Shown: positions 27,949-32,640, counted from the first letter of the stretch. The stretch is DNA of 47,371 nt from Gammaproteobacteria bacterium (GCA_011371455.1 DRQN01000006.1:1-47371), one strand, 5' to 3'. Notes: generated by a model from the sequence alone, not told the origin. Numbers and translations: made by a program.

Positions 27949-28061
27949 GGACTGGCAGGGGTAATGGGGTCGGTATCATTAGCGGTTCATCGCCTGCGGA
28001 CTTGAGGATAACCGAGCATCTTACACACACTTGACATAATTTCCTGGTGGGGGGCAGGGTT

Positions 28062-28073
28062 TATGTATACATA
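28062..28073. promoter_or_regulatory. 12-bp perfect palindrome TATGTATACATA upstream of the islet operon (possible operator)
   Basis: It lies 27 nt upstream of the ORF1 ATG, followed by a TAAAAT -10-like hexamer and the RBS GGGAGG (28089..28094). A TTGACA hexamer at 28031..28036 has no properly spaced -10. Confidence 0.35.
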
Positions 28074-28099
28074 AAATATTTGAATCTAGGGAGGAAATT

Positions 28100-29428
28100 A
28101 TGCAAAAGGTTATTGCTAGCACTGTTCTGAGTGTCTTTCTTATGGCGGGATGCGGTGAGGAAGACCAAACCGAACCATCCAACCAACCTCAAGTCGAATA
28201 TGCCTCACCCGAGACGGCCTCTGTTGAAATCCGGAATTACATGAATGCCGACTGGCTCTATAACGAGTATTTCGGGGAGTACGGTTTTCCGGACGAATTT
28301 AAGGCCACAGTTATCGACGACATCAAGCTGTTGGCCAACGGTTTTGCCTTGCAATTCGCCAGAGGCGAAGAGGTAGAACAGAACATCGCCGACTTCCGTA
28401 ACGGTATGCTGTTTTTGCAGGTTAGCGGGCAGTTTGGCGCCATGATTTCCCAGATGAGTGAGGCTTGGTACAGCGGTGACTATGAGGCGATGAGCGCCAG
28501 GCCTTCAGCGGTCGATATGGATTCCCTTCCTGACTCCGCGCGTTACTTCGATCTCGGAGTGCCGACCGAGGAGGAGATTTCACGATTGAAGGCGTTAGAA
28601 GCGGAAACGGCGAAAGATGAAGCAGCCTACCGCGTGGCACAGGAAGAACTGGTAGAAAAATATAATCTGCCATACAAGCTTCCAAATCGACGCACAAAAT
28701 ACATTATCTACACCCCGTCTATGAAGGGTGGCGGTGGGAAGAACAATAAGAAAGACGAGAAACCCGAGTACAGGCATGAATCGAATATTTCAGACTGGAC
28801 TTGGCGTCCTGGCGATATTATCTGGAGTGATGGAGCGGCCGGTGTGGGTCACATGGGCATCGTGACTCACTTCAATAATACGGGAGGCGAGATAGCGAGT
28901 GGTGTGCTGCCTTCGTCTTGGAGTCGGCCAAGTGGTGCAGTGTTGTCGATCGTGGATGCCAATACTGGAGGGGTCAATCTGCATCAAGGTGCTCTCTTAA
29001 TGGATGCATGGCAAAAGAAGTACGATACTGTCAGACGATATACTTACGCCTTTTATTTCGGATGGCCCGGCTTTATGCCGCCTTGTGACTACAAGGACTG
29101 CACGCTCAGTGGAAAAAACTATTATAACTACGTTACGCAGCGCATGTTTGCTATTGTCAATTGGGCAATGGGTCAGGTTAACAAGCCTTATAATTGGAAC
29201 TTTTTCAACAAGAACGCAGATGACAGTACATATTGCTCACAGCTTGTCTGGAATGCCTACAGACAGACAGCCAGGCCTTCGCCGCGCCCCGAATGGAGGA
29301 ATATTGATTTGGATAGTAATGGAGGCTGGATCGTTTATCCTAGCGACATTCTAAATCATCCTCTTGTGGTAAATATGGCGGAATCGAAGAAAAAGAAGGT
29401 TGGGGCATGCAAATATTATTGTTTCTAA
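28100..29428 (+). CDS. Lipoprotein with a C-terminal permuted papain-like (NlpC/P60 superfamily, YiiX/C92-like) domain
   Basis: Lipobox LMAGC (MQKVIASTVLSVFLMAGCGEE). An N-terminal helical region is followed by the G/K-rich linker SMKGGGGKNNKKDEK. The order is then GDIIWSDGAAGVGHMGIV (His) before DDSTYCSQLVWNAY (Cys), as in permuted papain-fold amidases. The C-terminal tail is ESKKKKVGACKYYCF. Confidence 0.7.
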   Translation: MQKVIASTVLSVFLMAGCGEEDQTEPSNQPQVEYASPETASVEIRNYMNADWLYNEYFGEYGFPDEFKATVIDDIKLLANGFALQFARGEEVEQNIADFRNGMLFLQVSGQFGAMISQMSEAWYSGDYEAMSARPSAVDMDSLPDSARYFDLGVPTEEEISRLKALEAETAKDEAAYRVAQEELVEKYNLPYKLPNRRTKYIIYTPSMKGGGGKNNKKDEKPEYRHESNISDWTWRPGDIIWSDGAAGVGHMGIVTHFNNTGGEIASGVLPSSWSRPSGAVLSIVDANTGGVNLHQGALLMDAWQKKYDTVRRYTYAFYFGWPGFMPPCDYKDCTLSGKNYYNYVTQRMFAIVNWAMGQVNKPYNWNFFNKNADDSTYCSQLVWNAYRQTARPSPRPEWRNIDLDSNGGWIVYPSDILNHPLVVNMAESKKKKVGACKYYCF

Positions 29429-30666
29429 TCACGGTAATTGCATTACTGGGCTGCAAGCCGGGTGCTGAAACGGTGGCTGTGGTCGATTGCGCCAATACCT
29501 TTGTGGTGTCAGGGAGCAGTCAGTTTGATTTGCTGGCCTACGACAAAACATCGAATGCAATACGCCTGATTCAGCACTATGAAGGGGAGCAGAGGTATCA
29601 GAGCAGTTATATTTGTGAGCGCGATATTGTCTTGTCATCCTACCAGTTTCGAGGCACGGCAAAAGAGGACGCGGGGTTTGAGATTGTTCACCGGAACGGT
29701 AAGGCTGAGCAAGTAAAGTTTACGGATGGGCCCGTAGACTTTGTTTCATACAAGGGCGGCATTCTTGTGAAAACAAATCGCCTGCATGCTGAGCCGGTGG
29801 ATGAGTCTCTGGGTGATTCACCTTATTTGATACGTGACAGAGAGCGTGGCTATTCGCACCGTAAGGACGGTAAAGAGGTGTTTCTTTATACTCACTATAT
29901 CCCATTTTCACATCTGGATGACCGAAGTTTCCGTCCGGAGCATTCTTATCGTTTTAGTGCGGTATTGGGTGATAGCGCAGGGATCTATGGCGATATACTG
30001 CTTGGCCCAGAGACTGTAACACCTGAAACCGGACTGTACCGGTTAAACCTGGTTACAGGACGCCGTGTCCGGCTGAGTAAGGTAGCGGGCAGTCTCAATG
30101 ATATTCATGTTCGCGGTAACGGTGATCGTTACTACCTGATATGGCCTGAGACCAAGAAATATCTCGCTGCCATAAAAGGCCACAAACATCTGCTTGAGCA
30201 GCCTCGCCCAATACCCGATGACCCCGTAGAGGCGCGCTTGCAAGCCTATTACCGTGGCATGGAGCGCGATACCCTGTACCGTTTCGAAGAGGATCCTGTG
30301 AACGGTAAGTGGGCGTACACCAAATTGAAAAAAATCGACGGGGGTATATATCATTATATTTCAGTGGACGAGGCGATTTATATTTTTACCCGCGATCGGC
30401 GGGCGATTCGCTACGATTCGGTGAAGGACACCTGGCAGGAGTTTCCCTTTGAATACAGTGATCGCTTTGAGCGCATAAACGCCATCGGGGATGGTCTGGC
30501 CTTTACGCTGAAGAGTCGCGATGGAAGCCTGGCTCGGGTCTATGTGGTTTCCCGGGATTTTTCCCGCATCAGCAAGCCGTTGACTATTGACCGTGATTGG
30601 TCGGATACGCGAATTTCTACCCGCTACAATTTTGTTTCCACTATTCCGAAATGGCTTGGGCAGTGA
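29407..30666 (+). CDS. Lipoprotein of unknown function (419 aa)
   Basis: Lipobox in MQILLFLITVIALLGCKPG. It overlaps ORF1 by 22 nt and is overlapped by ORF3 by 16 nt. I recognise no motif. Confidence 0.75.
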   Translation: MQILLFLITVIALLGCKPGAETVAVVDCANTFVVSGSSQFDLLAYDKTSNAIRLIQHYEGEQRYQSSYICERDIVLSSYQFRGTAKEDAGFEIVHRNGKAEQVKFTDGPVDFVSYKGGILVKTNRLHAEPVDESLGDSPYLIRDRERGYSHRKDGKEVFLYTHYIPFSHLDDRSFRPEHSYRFSAVLGDSAGIYGDILLGPETVTPETGLYRLNLVTGRRVRLSKVAGSLNDIHVRGNGDRYYLIWPETKKYLAAIKGHKHLLEQPRPIPDDPVEARLQAYYRGMERDTLYRFEEDPVNGKWAYTKLKKIDGGIYHYISVDEAIYIFTRDRRAIRYDSVKDTWQEFPFEYSDRFERINAIGDGLAFTLKSRDGSLARVYVVSRDFSRISKPLTIDRDWSDTRISTRYNFVSTIPKWLGQ

Positions 30667-31064
30667 GATTTCTTATTCCTCTACTTTTTTACCTATTGCC
30701 GTTCAGTATATTTGGTGAGCAATTGTACTGGTACGACGATGACCGAAAAGTGCTTATCCATGAGCGTAGCTACGATGCAACTTTGGGCATCTATGTCTAT
30801 CGCTTTGGCAGTTCATCAGATGCCCCCAGACGTCAGCTGACCGGCGATATCATCGTCAAGTTTTCCGGTATCCAAAGCGCGGATAGTCTTGCGGATTTTC
30901 AGGCAAGGTACTCCGTTACATTGGTGAAAAATCTCCCCGTTGGTACGGGGTATTATATTTTCAGCGCTATCGACAGGGAGACCTCTCTGGACATTGCTAA
31001 CCAAATTTACCGTGATGATGAAGTGCAATTTGCTTATCCTGACTGGCTGACCCTGGGCAGATGA
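30651..31064 (+). CDS. Secreted free-standing subtilase prodomain-like (inhibitor I9 / S8 pro-domain-like) protein
   Basis: The ATG at 30651 gives the signal peptide MAWAVRFLIPLLFYLLPFSIFG. The body GDIIVKFSGIQSADSLADFQARYSVTLVKNLPVGTGYYIFSAIDRETSLDIANQIYRDDEVQFAYPDW follows the beta-alpha-beta-beta-alpha-beta prodomain pattern. It ends ...LTLGR and its stop overlaps the S8 gene start (ATGA). Confidence 0.6.
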   Translation: MAWAVRFLIPLLFYLLPFSIFGEQLYWYDDDRKVLIHERSYDATLGIYVYRFGSSSDAPRRQLTGDIIVKFSGIQSADSLADFQARYSVTLVKNLPVGTGYYIFSAIDRETSLDIANQIYRDDEVQFAYPDWLTLGR

Positions 31065-32557
31065 GTCGTTCAAGTCTGTTTAGCGCCTGTTTGATTTTTC
31101 TTTCAGGTTGCGGCGGTAGTAATTATGAGTCCGATCCCCTCGTAACCGAGCAGTGGTATCTTTCCGGCAGCGACCTTGATGGAAACATGGTGCATATCAA
31201 TCTGAATCAGCACTATTACAAAGGCCGGGGCGTGCTGGTTGCCACAGTGGACAACGGTATTGACGTATTTCATGAAGACCTTCGGGCGAATATCGGAGAA
31301 GGGAGTTACAGCTACTTGCCCGAGGAGTATGGGTTTTCGCAGAAGGCTGATCATGGCACGGCGACTGCCGTTATTATCGCCGCCATCGAAGGCAATGGAA
31401 AGGGGATAAAAGGTATCGCGCCACAGGTCAGGATTATCGGTTTCAATGCCTTGAGGTTGGCGACGGTCAGTAATCTGGCGGATGCCCTGGTGAGAGAGAA
31501 AGAGCGCGTATGGATCTCTAATAACAGTTGGGGAGATATTAATAGCTGGGGTGAGCCGCTGGCGTTGAAAAGCCTGATACGGGATGCGTTGATCGATGGC
31601 GTTACTGATGGCAGAAGCGGCCGGGGTATTGCCTATGTTTTTGCTGCCGGCAATGGTGATGGTGTCATTAATGATCTGCCGATTGATAACGTCAATTATA
31701 GCGGCCTGGTTAATAACCGTTACACCATTCCCATTTGTGCCGTTGATGAATATGGAAAAAAGGCGGCTTACTCTGAGAAGGGCGCGACACTGATAGTTTG
31801 TGCGCCATCAAAAGGACGTGTGGAAGGAGTGGGTATCACGACGACCGATGTAACCGGGGAGGATGGGTACAACCCCACATTGTTTCCGGATGACTTTGAA
31901 AACCGGGGCTATACGGGTAATTTCGGCGGTACATCTGCGGCTGCACCGATGGTATCGGGTGTGGTGGCCTTGATGCTGGAAGCCAACTCGAGGCTCTCAT
32001 GGCGGGATGTGCGGATTATCCTTGCTAGGAGCGCCAGGCGGAACGACTCATCCGATTCGGACTGGGTTAGGAACGGGGCTGGTTATCCTGTCAACCACAA
32101 ATACGGTTTTGGCCTGGTAGATGCGGACAGGGCGGTGCAACTGGCGAAAGAGTGGGCGGGCGTGGGCGATGAAAAGATTCTTGAGTATCAGCAGGATGTT
32201 GGCGAGCCGATTCCAGATGGTGAGAATGATGGAGTACAAAATGAAATTCTTGTGGATGAAGATCTTCACATAGAATTTGTCGAGGTTTTCTTTGATGCTA
32301 GCGATCACCCAAACCTGGGGGATCTGGACATTGTGTTGACCTCGCCCGAGGGAACGGAAAGTGTTCTGGCCGAACAGCACAATGAGATGTTTGGCGTGTT
32401 TCAGTACAACAACTGGCGATTTGGAACAATGCGGCATTTGGGGGAGCGGTCACGGGGGAAATGGCAGCTGAAGGTTGTCGATAAGGCTGCGGGCGGCAGT
32501 GGTACATTTATTAACTGGCGGATCAAGGTTTATGGTACTAGGGAAAATCACAGTTGA
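31061..32557 (+). CDS. Kexin/furin-like S8 serine protease lipoprotein with a C-terminal proprotein-convertase P-domain and no prodomain
   Basis: Lipobox LSGC (Cys17). DPLVTEQWYL...VATVDNGIDVFHEDL (Asp64) aligns to the start of mature Kex2-type enzymes. The remaining catalytic elements are His in HGTATAVIIAA, the oxyanion Asn in NNSWG and Ser in GGTSAAAPMVSGVVAL. The P-domain tail is ...GDLDIVLTSPEGTESVL...GKWQLKVVDKAAGGSGTFINWRIKVYG. Confidence 0.88.
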   Translation: MSRSSLFSACLIFLSGCGGSNYESDPLVTEQWYLSGSDLDGNMVHINLNQHYYKGRGVLVATVDNGIDVFHEDLRANIGEGSYSYLPEEYGFSQKADHGTATAVIIAAIEGNGKGIKGIAPQVRIIGFNALRLATVSNLADALVREKERVWISNNSWGDINSWGEPLALKSLIRDALIDGVTDGRSGRGIAYVFAAGNGDGVINDLPIDNVNYSGLVNNRYTIPICAVDEYGKKAAYSEKGATLIVCAPSKGRVEGVGITTTDVTGEDGYNPTLFPDDFENRGYTGNFGGTSAAAPMVSGVVALMLEANSRLSWRDVRIILARSARRNDSSDSDWVRNGAGYPVNHKYGFGLVDADRAVQLAKEWAGVGDEKILEYQQDVGEPIPDGENDGVQNEILVDEDLHIEFVEVFFDASDHPNLGDLDIVLTSPEGTESVLAEQHNEMFGVFQYNNWRFGTMRHLGERSRGKWQLKVVDKAAGGSGTFINWRIKVYGTRENHS

Positions 32558-32640
32558 TGGCCGCAGATCATTTTGTCTTCTTTGAGTGGGAACCTCTCGA
32601 GTTTGGAAATAATCTGCTGCGTAGATGAGGGCGGCAGAAA

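What the first reader, a model, noticed from the sequence alone, without database searches (positions are those of the whole stretch)
30651..32557. Kexin-like protease split from its prodomain exactly at the expected processing junction
The S8 ORF starts with its own lipobox (Cys17). Only 47 residues later it reaches the catalytic Asp (VATVDNG). The segment DPLVTEQWYL...GRGVLVATVDNGIDVFHEDL aligns with the start of mature Kex2-type enzymes (DPLFERQWHL...VVAAIVDDGLDYENEDL), so there is no room for a cis prodomain. The preceding ORF encodes a signal peptide plus about 110 residues with the prodomain/I9-like pattern. It ends ...AYPDWLTLGR-stop, so the C-terminal residue is Arg, the P1 residue a basic-specific convertase would hold in its active site after autoprocessing. 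The stop overlaps the protease ATG (ATGA). This looks like a genetically pre-cleaved prodomain acting in trans as a foldase or inhibitor. A separately encoded external chaperone is known for the propeptide-deficient kexin-like protease ASP of Aeromonas sobria (ORF2), but that partner lies downstream of asp and I cannot say it is homologous.
Basis: partly seen in the sequence, partly recalled or inferred. Interest (0 to 1): 0.66.

Follow-up and report, generated by a model that had tools for sequence, protein, structure and literature searches.

The report
Separately encoded prodomain for lipoprotein subtilase
A small secreted protein encoded just upstream of a membrane-anchored, furin-shaped protease is that protease's detached folding and inhibitor domain; the principle is already known from one Aeromonas enzyme, but here it appears in a different, widespread gene layout.

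Summary
ORF3 (30651-31064) carries a signal peptide plus about 115 residues. It overlaps by ATGA a 498-aa S8 + P-domain lipoprotein that aligns to mature furin and Kex2 from residue 24 and has no cis prodomain.

ORF3 is a real prodomain homologue.
- Its profile hits the segment just N-terminal to the catalytic domain in long S8+P proteases.
- Its AlphaFold model (pLDDT 92.5) best matches PC1/3 and subtilisin prodomains.
- The split is conserved in at least 9 loci down to about 30% identity, so it is not a frameshift.

- The protease clade has replaced the furin/kexin acidic specificity residues: D154, E236, D258, D264 and D306 become N, L, N, L and S.
- ORF3's tail is 5 residues, against a canonical 7. 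Its terminal Arg/Lys is conserved only in the closest relatives.

Across the wider family, 52 of 71 stand-alone genes stop exactly at the K/R that fused relatives carry before xxPxDPLFxxQW. Relatives occur fused, split upstream, or split downstream (the ASP/ORF2 gene order).

Proteases without a prodomain are lipoproteins; all 13 fused ones are not. The likely reason for the split is N-terminal lipid anchoring. Verdict: a new variant of the known external-chaperone principle. Function is inferred, not shown.

The parts
28100..29428 (+). Gene 1 of the cassette: a 442-aa lipoprotein (lipobox MAGC, Cys18) with a C-terminal Peptidase_C92 (YiiX-like permuted papain) region.
   Evidence: ORF list. 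Pfam PF05708 E 4.7e-9 at residues 346-391. Homologues sit upstream of the protease in L001, L002, L004, L008, L088, L089 and L090.
29407..30666 (+). Gene 2 of the cassette: a 419-aa lipoprotein (lipobox LLGC, Cys16) with no family assignment, possibly repeat or beta-propeller-like.
   Evidence: ORF list. No Pfam or NCBIfam hit. Weak PDB hits to designed beta-propellers only. Conserved in L001-L004, L008, L088 and L089.
30651..31064 (+). ORF3: the separately encoded prodomain homologue. It is 137 aa from ATG 30651. An alternative start, GTG 30663, would give a GTGA overlap with the stop of gene 2.
   Evidence: Homologues P0002-P0004 keep the N-terminal extension. The GenBank call (P0001, 113 aa) starts at an internal TTG and drops it.
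30651..30716 (+). Predicted Sec signal peptide of ORF3 (MAWAVRFLIPLLFYLLPFSIFG|EQ).
   Evidence: Read directly from the sequence. The hydrophobic N-terminus is conserved in P0002-P0004 and in the wider family. No signal-peptide predictor was available, so the cleavage site is inferred.
30717..30827 (+). N-terminal beta-strand subdomain of mature ORF3, carrying the LYWYDDDRKV motif.
   Evidence: AlphaFold strands at mature residues 3-7, 10-14, 16-20 and 25-29. The motif (Y/W-Y-x-x-x-x-K) recurs at the N-terminus of stand-alone and fused relatives.
30828..31046 (+). Prodomain core (beta-alpha-beta-beta-alpha-beta) of ORF3, ending in the AYPDW motif.
   Evidence: AlphaFold pLDDT 92.5. Foldseek top hits are the PC1/3 prodomain (9fic, 9fid, 9fie; TM 0.73-0.79 on the target) and subtilisin prosegments. 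Profile positions 50-133 match cis-prodomains of S8+P proteases.
31047..31061 (+). C-terminal tail LTLGR of ORF3.
   Evidence: The tail is 5 residues, against 7 in 52 of 71 stand-alone relatives. The terminal residue is R/K/K/K in the four closest relatives.
31061..31064 (+). ATGA overlap of the ORF3 stop and the protease start.
   Evidence: Conserved in L001, L002 and L003 with no indel.
31061..32557 (+). A 498-aa S8 + P-domain lipoprotein protease without a cis prodomain.
31061..31111 (+). Lipoprotein signal peptide and lipobox (LSGC, Cys17) of the protease.
   Evidence: Cys17 is invariant in 68 relatives. A lipobox is found in 59 of 71 short-N-terminus relatives by a strict pattern, and in nearly all by eye.
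31223..32113 (+). Subtilase catalytic domain (triad D64, H98, S292; oxyanion N198).
   Evidence: Pfam PF00082 at residues 55-351. The catalytic residues are invariant.
32303..32527 (+). Proprotein-convertase P domain.
   Evidence: Pfam PF01483 at residues 415-489, E 1e-18. Aligned through to the furin P domain.

Best explanation
ORF3 is the prodomain of the downstream subtilase, encoded as its own gene.

**Proposed mechanism**
1. Both proteins are made from one translationally coupled operon and exported separately. ORF3 uses an ordinary signal peptide. The protease uses a lipoprotein signal peptide.
2. In the periplasm ORF3 binds the unfolded or newly folded catalytic domain in trans, as a cis prodomain would. 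It acts as folding template and temporary inhibitor.
3. ORF3 is then released or degraded, leaving an active protease that is lipid-anchored at Cys17.

**Why the gene is split (inference)**
An N-terminal lipid anchor and an N-terminal cleavable prodomain are incompatible. Autoprocessing would cut the enzyme off its anchor.

**What is shown**
- Homology of ORF3 to cis prodomains.
- The prodomain fold.
- Absence of a cis prodomain in the protease.
- Conservation of the split and of the gene pair.
- The correlation between a lipobox and absence of a cis prodomain.

**What is inferred**
- Binding, foldase and inhibitor activity.
- The fate of ORF3.
- Any role of the C-terminal tail.

The protease is furin-shaped but probably not specific for basic residues.
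For: **Homology to cis prodomains.** A profile of ORF3 and its 3 relatives found 101 proteins (E <= 1e-3) among 1.84 billion representatives. These include long proteases (P0154, P0162, P0168, P0186, P0192, P0193, P0200). In them the match (profile 50-133) lies at about residues 130-225, directly before Peptidase_S8 + P_proprotein. In P0200 Pfam Fervidolysin_NPro-like covers the same stretch. That family is hit by 18 of 47 and 17 of 25 stand-alone relatives, and 3 of 47 hit S8_pro-domain.

**Fold.** AlphaFold gives pLDDT 92.5, pTM 0.83 and a beta-alpha-beta-beta-alpha-beta core. The eight best PDB matches are PC1/3 prodomains (free and bound to furin) and subtilisin prosegments.

**Junction.** In 52 of 71 stand-alone representatives the protein ends exactly 7 residues after the P-[DN]-[WF] motif, and 56 of 71 end in R/K. 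Fused relatives have K/R at that same position, followed by xxP[ND]DPLFxxQWHL. One example is L065: AHPDFLIEPKKR|SFDPLFDPLQWNL.

**Conserved pairing.** ORF3-like genes lie immediately upstream of the protease in window, L001/5, L002, L003, L004, L008, L088, L089, L006, L007 and L066.

**Lipoprotein correlation.** All 13 relatives with a cis prodomain lack a lipobox. Of the relatives without one, 59 of 71 have a lipobox by the strict pattern and about 70 of 71 by eye.

**Precedent.** ORF2 of Aeromonas sobria ASP is required for maturation of that propeptide-less kexin-like protease and inhibits it, with its C-terminal Lys at the catalytic centre (PMC5638518).
Against: - No experiment exists, and no interpretable model of the complex. 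The pseudo-zymogen AlphaFold model had mean pLDDT 62.8, with the junction and much of the catalytic domain below 50.
- ORF3 itself hits no Pfam or NCBIfam model.
- Foldseek E-values are modest (3.5e-3 at best). The beta-alpha-beta-beta-alpha-beta fold is common, and RRM and ACT domains follow in the list.
- One relative, L090 (protease 52% identical), has the cassette but no detectable ORF3-like ORF. The partner is therefore not universally adjacent, or not universally needed.
- The tail is shorter than canonical and its end is variable in this clade. This argues against a strict role for the tail in the active site.
Confidence: 0.72

Rival explanations
1. ORF3 is 'pre-cleaved' exactly at P1, and its C-terminal Arg sits in the S1 pocket of a convertase specific for dibasic sites, as after furin or Kex2 autoprocessing.
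For: - The four closest ORF3 proteins end in R/K, two of them in RK.
- In the wider family the stand-alone genes end precisely at the K/R of the fused junction, often KR or RR.
- The C-terminal Lys of ASP ORF2 lies at the catalytic centre (PMC5638518).
- Basic termini are enriched even in the window's clade: about 10 of 17 tails.
Against: - Furin S1, S2 and S4 residues D258, D306, D154, E236 and D264 correspond to N161, S214, N65, L139 and L167 here and in every clade member examined. Relatives with RxKR junctions keep D/E at these positions.
- Loci with the identical pocket have tails ending in F (L004) or Q (L008).
- The window tail is 5 residues, not 7. With canonical docking it would stop near S3.
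Confidence: 0.2
2. ORF3 is only an inhibitor, an I9-type 'safety catch' that protects the envelope until the protease reaches its destination. It has no foldase role, and the protease folds on its own.
For: - Stand-alone propeptide-like proteins that act purely as inhibitors are known, for example Plasmodium SUB1-ProM (PMC6993865).
- L090 lacks an adjacent ORF3, which suggests folding may not strictly need it.
Against: - Tight translational coupling (ATGA) and 1:1 gene pairing across divergent lineages fit a stoichiometric maturation factor.
- The only characterised propeptide-less kexin-like protease, ASP, needs its partner for maturation.
- The two roles are not mutually exclusive in known prodomains.
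Confidence: 0.15
3. The split is an artefact or a recent pseudogenisation: a frameshift in a single pro-protease gene.
For: A 4-nt overlap is what a +1/-1 frameshift at a junction could look like. L002 does show a broken protease ORF further downstream.
Against: - The same ATGA junction without indels occurs in four loci.
- The split is present in at least 9 loci down to about 30% ORF3 identity.
- The downstream ORF starts with its own lipoprotein signal peptide, with an invariant Cys.
- No relative at or above 49% identity has a fused prodomain.
Confidence: 0.01
4. ORF3 serves another cassette member, the C92-like amidase or the 419-aa lipoprotein. Alternatively it is a substrate or adaptor of the protease rather than its prodomain.
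For: The four genes form a conserved unit. ORF3 has an extra N-terminal beta subdomain of unknown role.
Against: - ORF3-like genes pair with S8 genes also where the C92 and 419-aa genes are absent (L006, L007, L066).
- The same domain is fused to S8 in many relatives.
Confidence: 0.04

Closest known systems
ASP / ORF2 of Aeromonas sobria: a propeptide-deficient kexin-like serine protease and its external chaperone (PDB 3HJR, 3WQB; Pfam PF18492 ORF_2_N)
   Same: - Both are bacterial S8 + P-domain proteases with no cis propeptide. The window protease hits ASP at E 8e-34.
- Both have a small partner encoded in the same operon.
- ORF2 is needed for maturation and acts as a temporary inhibitor, with its C-terminal basic residue at the catalytic centre (PMC5638518).
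- From my memory of Kobayashi et al. 2015 (not held in the library), the ORF2 body plus tail resembles an intramolecular propeptide.
   Different: - The partner is upstream here, not downstream.
- There is no significant sequence similarity. ORF3 and profiles A2 and A5 find no 3WQB chain. ORF_2_N is hit only below threshold, in 3 of 47 and 7 of 25 relatives. 3WQB_B is not among the top 50 fold matches.
- The protease here is a lipoprotein, is closer to furin/Kex2 than to ASP, and lacks the acidic specificity residues.
- It sits in a four-gene lipoprotein cassette.
Cis prodomains of bacterial S8 + P-domain proteases (Pfam PF22148 Fervidolysin_NPro-like) and of furin/kexin/PC1/3 (PF16470 S8_pro-domain)
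   Same: - Detectable sequence homology to the cis domain.
- The same fold.
- The same motif ...A-Y-P-D/N-W followed by a short tail. In fused proteins the tail ends in K/R before DPLFxxQW.
   Different: - ORF3 is encoded and exported as a separate polypeptide.
- Its tail is 5 residues, not 7.
- ORF3 itself is below detection by the Pfam models.
- It carries an extra N-terminal beta subdomain in place of the first of two tandem domains seen in the fused proteins.
Stand-alone I9 / propeptide-like inhibitors such as Plasmodium SUB1-ProM (and, from memory, yeast PBI2 and Pleurotus POIA1)
   Same: A separately encoded protein with a subtilase-propeptide fold, encoded next to subtilase genes, that binds its cognate protease (PMC6993865).
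   Different: Those act on proteases that still have their own cis prodomain, and they are regulators rather than replacements. Here the protease has no prodomain at all.
Furin / Kex2 proprotein convertases (MEROPS S8B)
   Same: Catalytic domain plus P domain aligned end to end (E about 1e-49), with an intact triad and oxyanion Asn.
   Different: - No cis prodomain.
- A lipid anchor instead of a C-terminal transmembrane segment.
- Acidic S1, S2 and S4 residues replaced.

Membership tests
Subtilase prodomain superfamily (PF22148 Fervidolysin_NPro-like / PF16470 S8_pro-domain / I9-like) | Beta-alpha-beta-beta-alpha-beta open-sandwich fold. | tested here: met
   AlphaFold pLDDT 92.5 with elements E38-49, H55-65, E67-72, E79-84, H89-98 and E103-113. 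The top 8 Foldseek PDB hits are PC1/3 and subtilisin prodomains.
Subtilase prodomain superfamily (PF22148 Fervidolysin_NPro-like / PF16470 S8_pro-domain / I9-like) | Sequence homology to domains located immediately N-terminal to an S8 catalytic domain. | tested here: met
   The ORF3 profile matches residues of about 130-225 in P0154, P0162, P0168, P0186, P0192, P0193 and P0200, whose S8 domains start at about 258-281. Many fused loci show the same.
Subtilase prodomain superfamily (PF22148 Fervidolysin_NPro-like / PF16470 S8_pro-domain / I9-like) | Match of this protein to the curated Pfam model above the gathering score. | tested here: not met
   ORF3 has no Pfam hit at E <= 1. Membership rests on transitive evidence: 18 of 47 relatives hit PF22148 and 3 of 47 hit PF16470.
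Subtilase prodomain superfamily (PF22148 Fervidolysin_NPro-like / PF16470 S8_pro-domain / I9-like) | C-terminal tail that ends at the P1 residue and occupies the S4-S1 subsites of the cognate protease. | tested here: inconclusive
   The wider family ends exactly at the fused-junction K/R. The window tail is 2 residues shorter. The complex model is unreadable.
Subtilase prodomain superfamily (PF22148 Fervidolysin_NPro-like / PF16470 S8_pro-domain / I9-like) | Foldase and/or inhibitor activity towards the cognate protease. | not testable with these tools
   Needs co-expression and inhibition assays.
ASP/ORF2 external-chaperone system | Kexin-like S8 + P-domain protease that lacks a cis propeptide. 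| tested here: met
   Residue 24 aligns to residue 7 of mature furin, and 3hjr/3wqb_A are hit at E about 1e-33.
ASP/ORF2 external-chaperone system | Partner encoded just downstream of the protease gene. | tested here: not met
   ORF3 is upstream. Other relatives do have a downstream partner of about 200 aa (L009, L010, L017, L020-22, L028, L056, L091).
ASP/ORF2 external-chaperone system | Partner is a member of the ORF2 sequence family (Pfam PF18492). | tested here: not met
   No hit for ORF3. Relatives give only sub-threshold hits, the best at 25.7 bits against a cut-off of 29.2. No PDB sequence hit to 3WQB chain B.
ASP/ORF2 external-chaperone system | Partner required for maturation, with its C-terminal basic residue at the catalytic centre. 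| not testable with these tools
   Structure jobs are exhausted and the pseudo-zymogen model was low-confidence.
Furin/kexin proprotein convertases (S8B) | S8 catalytic domain followed by a P domain, with an intact D-H-S triad and oxyanion Asn. | tested here: met
Furin/kexin proprotein convertases (S8B) | Acidic S1, S2 and S4 pockets that confer specificity for basic residues (furin D154, D191, E236, D258, D264, D306). | tested here: not met
   Only the D191 equivalent (D97) is kept. The others are N65, L139, N161, L167 and S214, the same in every clade member examined. The mapping comes from the alignment.
Furin/kexin proprotein convertases (S8B) | Cis prodomain removed by autoprocessing. | tested here: not met
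   Only 7 residues lie between the lipidated Cys17 and the DPLVTEQWYL start of the mature fold.

The most novel reading that the evidence does not exclude
Bacterial furin-like subtilases form a natural series in which one prodomain is found in three states: fused, encoded upstream, or encoded downstream (which may include ASP/ORF2 as a distant member).

The stand-alone genes typically terminate at the very residue that is P1 of the ancestral autoprocessing site. Detachment was selected because it lets the mature enzyme keep an N-terminal lipid anchor.

In the window's clade the system has moved further. The protease has lost its basic specificity and the tail is free to vary. The pair also travels as part of a horizontally mobile four-gene lipoprotein cassette, with a C92 amidase-like protein and a propeller-like protein, whose function is unknown.
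Probability: 0.4. Interest if true: 0.6.

Novelty: new variant of a known kind. Interest (0 to 1): 0.45.

Why it matters
**Mechanistic rationale.** The finding offers a testable reason why some subtilases have 'lost' their propeptide. The propeptide is still there, as a neighbouring gene. The split correlates perfectly in this sample with lipoprotein anchoring of the enzyme.

**Annotation.** Many database entries for propeptide-less bacterial 'kexins' have an unannotated or mis-named partner. The window's copy is called from an internal TTG without its signal peptide. A 128-aa relative is named 'S8 family serine peptidase'. Heterologous expression of these proteases will probably fail without the partner.

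**Evolution.** Fused, upstream and downstream states of one domain, with gene ends that coincide with the processing site, make a clean natural experiment on intramolecular versus intermolecular chaperones.

**Limits.** The principle was already established for ASP/ORF2, so this is an extension rather than a new concept.

Tried and rejected
1. **Model of the complex.** I concatenated mature ORF3 with the protease from Cys17 as a pseudo-zymogen and aligned it with 16 natural fused relatives (A9). AlphaFold gave mean pLDDT 62.8, with residues 111-175 and much of the catalytic domain below 50. The position of LGR cannot be read from it.
   - Alignments A7 and A8 were discarded unsubmitted because MAFFT misaligned the short prodomain sequences.
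2. **Direct sequence link to ASP ORF2.** phmmer or hmmsearch of ORF3, profile A2, profile A5 and a downstream-type partner against all PDB chains found no 3WQB chain B. Only sub-threshold Pfam ORF_2_N hits appeared in relatives. The Kobayashi 2015 paper is not held in the library.
4. **Frameshift hypothesis.** Rejected.
5. **Defence-system reading of the cassette.** Only a generic subtilase model hit in PADLOC.
6. **Promoter and terminator scans.** Nothing above shuffled expectation.
7. **Covariation of the tail's last residue with the protease S1 pocket inside the window's clade.** The pocket is invariant while the tail varies. There is no covariation signal. The contrast appears only between clades.

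Full report
**1. The observation**

The window is the 47,371-bp contig of a metagenome-assembled gammaproteobacterium. NCBI names the two genes ENK51_00400 and ENK51_00405.

*The protease.*
- The ORF at 31061-32557 encodes 498 aa starting MSRSSLFSACLIFLSGC|GGSNYESDPLVTEQWYL.
- Pfam finds Peptidase_S8 at 55-351 (E 7e-37) and the proprotein-convertase P domain at 415-489 (E 1e-18).
- Against all PDB sequences the best hits are mature furin (E 2e-49) and Kex2 (E 5e-48). Query residues 24-494 cover residues 7-467 of the furin chains. Aeromonas sobria ASP (3hjr, 3wqb_A) follows at E about 1e-33.
- The lipobox Cys17 is invariant in 68 relatives, as are D64, H98, N198 and S292.
- Only seven residues separate the lipidated Cys from the start of the mature fold, so there is no room for a cis prodomain.

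*ORF3.*
- It spans 30651-31064 and ends ...AYPDWLTLGR-stop.
- Its stop overlaps the protease ATG as ATGA. That junction is conserved without indels in three other loci.

**2. ORF3 is a real gene and the split is ancient**
- ORF3 has no Pfam, NCBIfam or PDB sequence hit.
- It has three close homologues at 66-75% identity. Each lies directly upstream of an S8 gene with a 4-nt overlap.
- A Sulfuricurvum genome (L004) carries a 34%-identical ORF3 upstream of a 65%-identical protease.
- The pair also occurs in L008, L088 and L089. More distant versions in Sulfurimonas and other metagenomes are L006, L007 and L066.
- None of the roughly 75 protease relatives at or above 49% identity has a long N-terminus. 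All go from a lipobox to DPLxxxQW within about 7-15 residues.
- A frameshift artefact is excluded.
- The public annotation of ORF3 (P0001, 113 aa) starts at an internal TTG and omits the signal peptide that the homologues conserve.

**3. ORF3 is homologous to cis prodomains**

A profile of the four ORF3 sequences was scored against 1.84 billion representative proteins and gave 101 hits at E <= 1e-3.
- About 70 are small stand-alone proteins.
- The long hits (800-1074 aa) are all S8 + P-domain proteases. In them the ORF3 match (profile 50-133) lies at about residues 130-225, just before the catalytic domain.
- In P0200 the Pfam model 'Fervidolysin N-terminal prodomain' covers the same residues.
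- Among stand-alone relatives, 18 of 47 and 17 of 25 hit that model, and 3 of 47 hit the furin/kexin S8_pro-domain model.

AlphaFold2 was run on mature ORF3 with a 44-sequence alignment.
- It gave pLDDT 92.5 and pTM 0.83.
- The model has four short N-terminal strands followed by beta-alpha-beta-beta-alpha-beta.
- The best PDB matches by Foldseek are the human PC1/3 prodomain, free and bound to furin (9fic, 9fid, 9fie; target TM 0.73-0.79, rmsd 2.4-2.9 Å). Subtilisin E and BPN' prosegments come next.
- The E-values are modest (>= 3.5e-3) and the fold is common. Taken with the sequence evidence, the assignment is secure.

**4. The junction**

Among 71 stand-alone representatives:
- 52 end exactly seven residues after the P-[DN]-[WF] motif;
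- 56 end in R or K, including KR 13 times and RR 9 times.

Fused relatives carry K/R at precisely that seventh position, followed by xxP[ND]DPLFxxQWHL. Examples are YAYPNWLRGRTKR|ATPNDPLFPDQWHL (P0098) and AHPDFLIEPKKR|SFDPLFDPLQWNL (L065). For the family as a whole, the stand-alone genes do stop at the predicted autoprocessing P1.

In the window's own clade the rule is relaxed.
- Tails are 3-8 residues; the window's is 5 (LTLGR).
- Tails end in R, K, F, Q, P, L, E, S or D.
- Basic termini are still enriched, in about 10 of 17 tails. These sequences are related, so this is not an independent count.

**5. The protease is furin-shaped but probably not basic-specific**

I used the furin alignment and alignments of relatives.

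| Furin residue | Window residue |
|---|---|
| D154 | N65 |
| D191 | D97 |
| E236 | L139 |
| D258 | N161 |
| D264 | L167 |
| D306 | S214 |
| Y308 | L216 |

- The motifs SWGD[FI]NSWGEP and NYSGLVNN are essentially invariant in the window's clade.
- The fused relatives with RxKR junctions keep D/E/D/E/D/Y at these positions. So do the relatives with downstream partners ending in R/K (L009, L010, L091).
- Between clades, basic tails go with acidic pockets.
- Within the window's clade the pocket is fixed while the tail end varies: R/K in window, L001-3, L088 and L089; F in L004; Q in L008.
- The specific claim that Arg137 is the P1 ligand of a basic-specific convertase is therefore weak.
- My attempt to model the complex failed, with pLDDT 62.8 and the junction below 50.

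**6. Three architectures, and a reason for the split**

hmmsearch of 90 related loci shows the same domain in three arrangements:
- fused (L031, L039, L054, L057, L058, L062, L065, L067, L072, L074, L075, L077, L082, L084);
- encoded upstream (the window type);
- encoded downstream as a protein of about 200 aa (L009, L010, L017, L020-22, L028, L041, L044, L056, and L091 from Leptonema illini). This is the gene order of asp-orf2.

All 13 relatives with a cis prodomain lack a lipobox. Relatives without one have a lipobox in 59 of 71 cases by a strict pattern, and in nearly all by eye.

My inference is that a cleavable N-terminal prodomain would sit between the lipid anchor and the enzyme, so autoprocessing would release the enzyme. 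Moving the prodomain to its own gene, with its own Sec signal peptide, keeps both the chaperone and the anchor. The correlation is shown; the causal reading is not.

**7. Comparison with what is known**

*ASP/ORF2.* The closest functional precedent is ASP/ORF2 of Aeromonas sobria.
- ASP is a kexin-like protease without a propeptide.
- Its maturation requires ORF2, which is encoded just downstream.
- ORF2 inhibits ASP (IC50 84 nM), and its C-terminal Lys lies at the catalytic centre (PMC5638518).
- From memory of Kobayashi et al. 2015 (not held), the ORF2 body and tail resemble an intramolecular propeptide.

ORF3 works like ORF2 in all likelihood, but it is not a demonstrable member of the ORF2 family.
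- No PDB sequence hit to 3WQB chain B.
- Only sub-threshold Pfam ORF_2_N hits, and only in relatives.
- The opposite gene order.
- A lipoprotein rather than a secreted enzyme.

*Stand-alone inhibitors.* Stand-alone propeptide-like inhibitors are also known in eukaryotes, for example SUB1-ProM (PMC6993865). There the protease keeps its own prodomain.

**8. Context**
- ORF3 and the protease are the last two genes of a four-gene cassette with overlapping reading frames. The first two are a C92 (YiiX-like) lipoprotein (28100-29428) and a 419-aa lipoprotein of unknown family (29407-30666).
- The cassette is conserved in L001, L002, L004, L008, L088 and L089. In L090 it is present without ORF3.
- The cassette has 47-52% GC against 62-71% in the flanks. 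It sits in different neighbourhoods in different genomes. This suggests horizontal transfer between Campylobacterota and Gammaproteobacteria.

**9. Verdict**
- It is a new variant of the external-chaperone principle known from ASP/ORF2, with a plausible new rationale (lipid anchoring) and a much wider distribution than the literature I could search describes.
- All functional statements remain inferences from homology, fold and gene context.

Noticed in passing
window 28000-32600: The four-gene cassette is a low-GC island (0.47-0.52) between flanks of 0.62-0.71 GC. It lies next to mnmG-rsmG-parA. The cassette sits in unrelated neighbourhoods in L001, L004, L088 and L089, which suggests horizontal transfer as a unit.
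   Followed up: partly
window 30651-30725: The GenBank gene call for ORF3 (P0001, 113 aa, MYWYDDD...) starts at an internal TTG and omits the signal peptide conserved in homologues. ATG 30651, or GTG 30663 (a GTGA overlap with the upstream stop), fits better.
   Followed up: partly
window 28100-30666: Two further lipoproteins are co-transcribed with the pair. One is a 442-aa protein with a C92/YiiX-like permuted papain region. The other is a 419-aa protein with only weak resemblance to designed beta-propellers. Their function, and their link to the protease, are unknown.
   Followed up: partly
L090 2288-6518: A relative with 52% protease identity has the C92-like gene and a 448-aa gene directly upstream of the protease, but no ORF3-like ORF anywhere in the 11.5-kb locus.
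   Followed up: partly
L002 2256-3501: The protease gene of this close relative is broken into two ORFs (159 and 246 aa). This is either a frameshift/pseudogene or an assembly error in a 4-kb contig.
   Followed up: no
L011-L014 (e.g. L012 1124-8240): Three S8 + P-domain paralogues lie in tandem, each with long N-terminal regions. A weak ORF3-like ORF lies upstream of the first.
   Followed up: no
L006 6001-6387 (P0228, Candidatus Sulfurimonas baltica): NCBI names a 128-aa stand-alone prodomain 'S8 family serine peptidase', while UniRef calls it 'Fervidolysin-like N-terminal...'. The locus is flanked by relaxase, integrase and AbiEii genes, which suggests a mobile element.
   Followed up: no
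Alignments A2 and A5 (stand-alone relatives): Pfam PF18492 (ORF_2_N, built on the ASP chaperone ORF2) gives sub-threshold hits to the prodomain-like region of 3 of 47 and 7 of 25 relatives. The best is 25.7 bits against a cut-off of 29.2. This hints that ORF2 is a distant member of the same superfamily.
   Followed up: partly
L091 6603-7208 (Leptonema illini): A lipoprotein S8+P protease that keeps furin-like acidic pockets has a 201-aa partner downstream ending ...PDWWREVSRR. The pair sits inside a flagellar gene cluster (flgK, flagellin, fliW, csrA).
   Followed up: no
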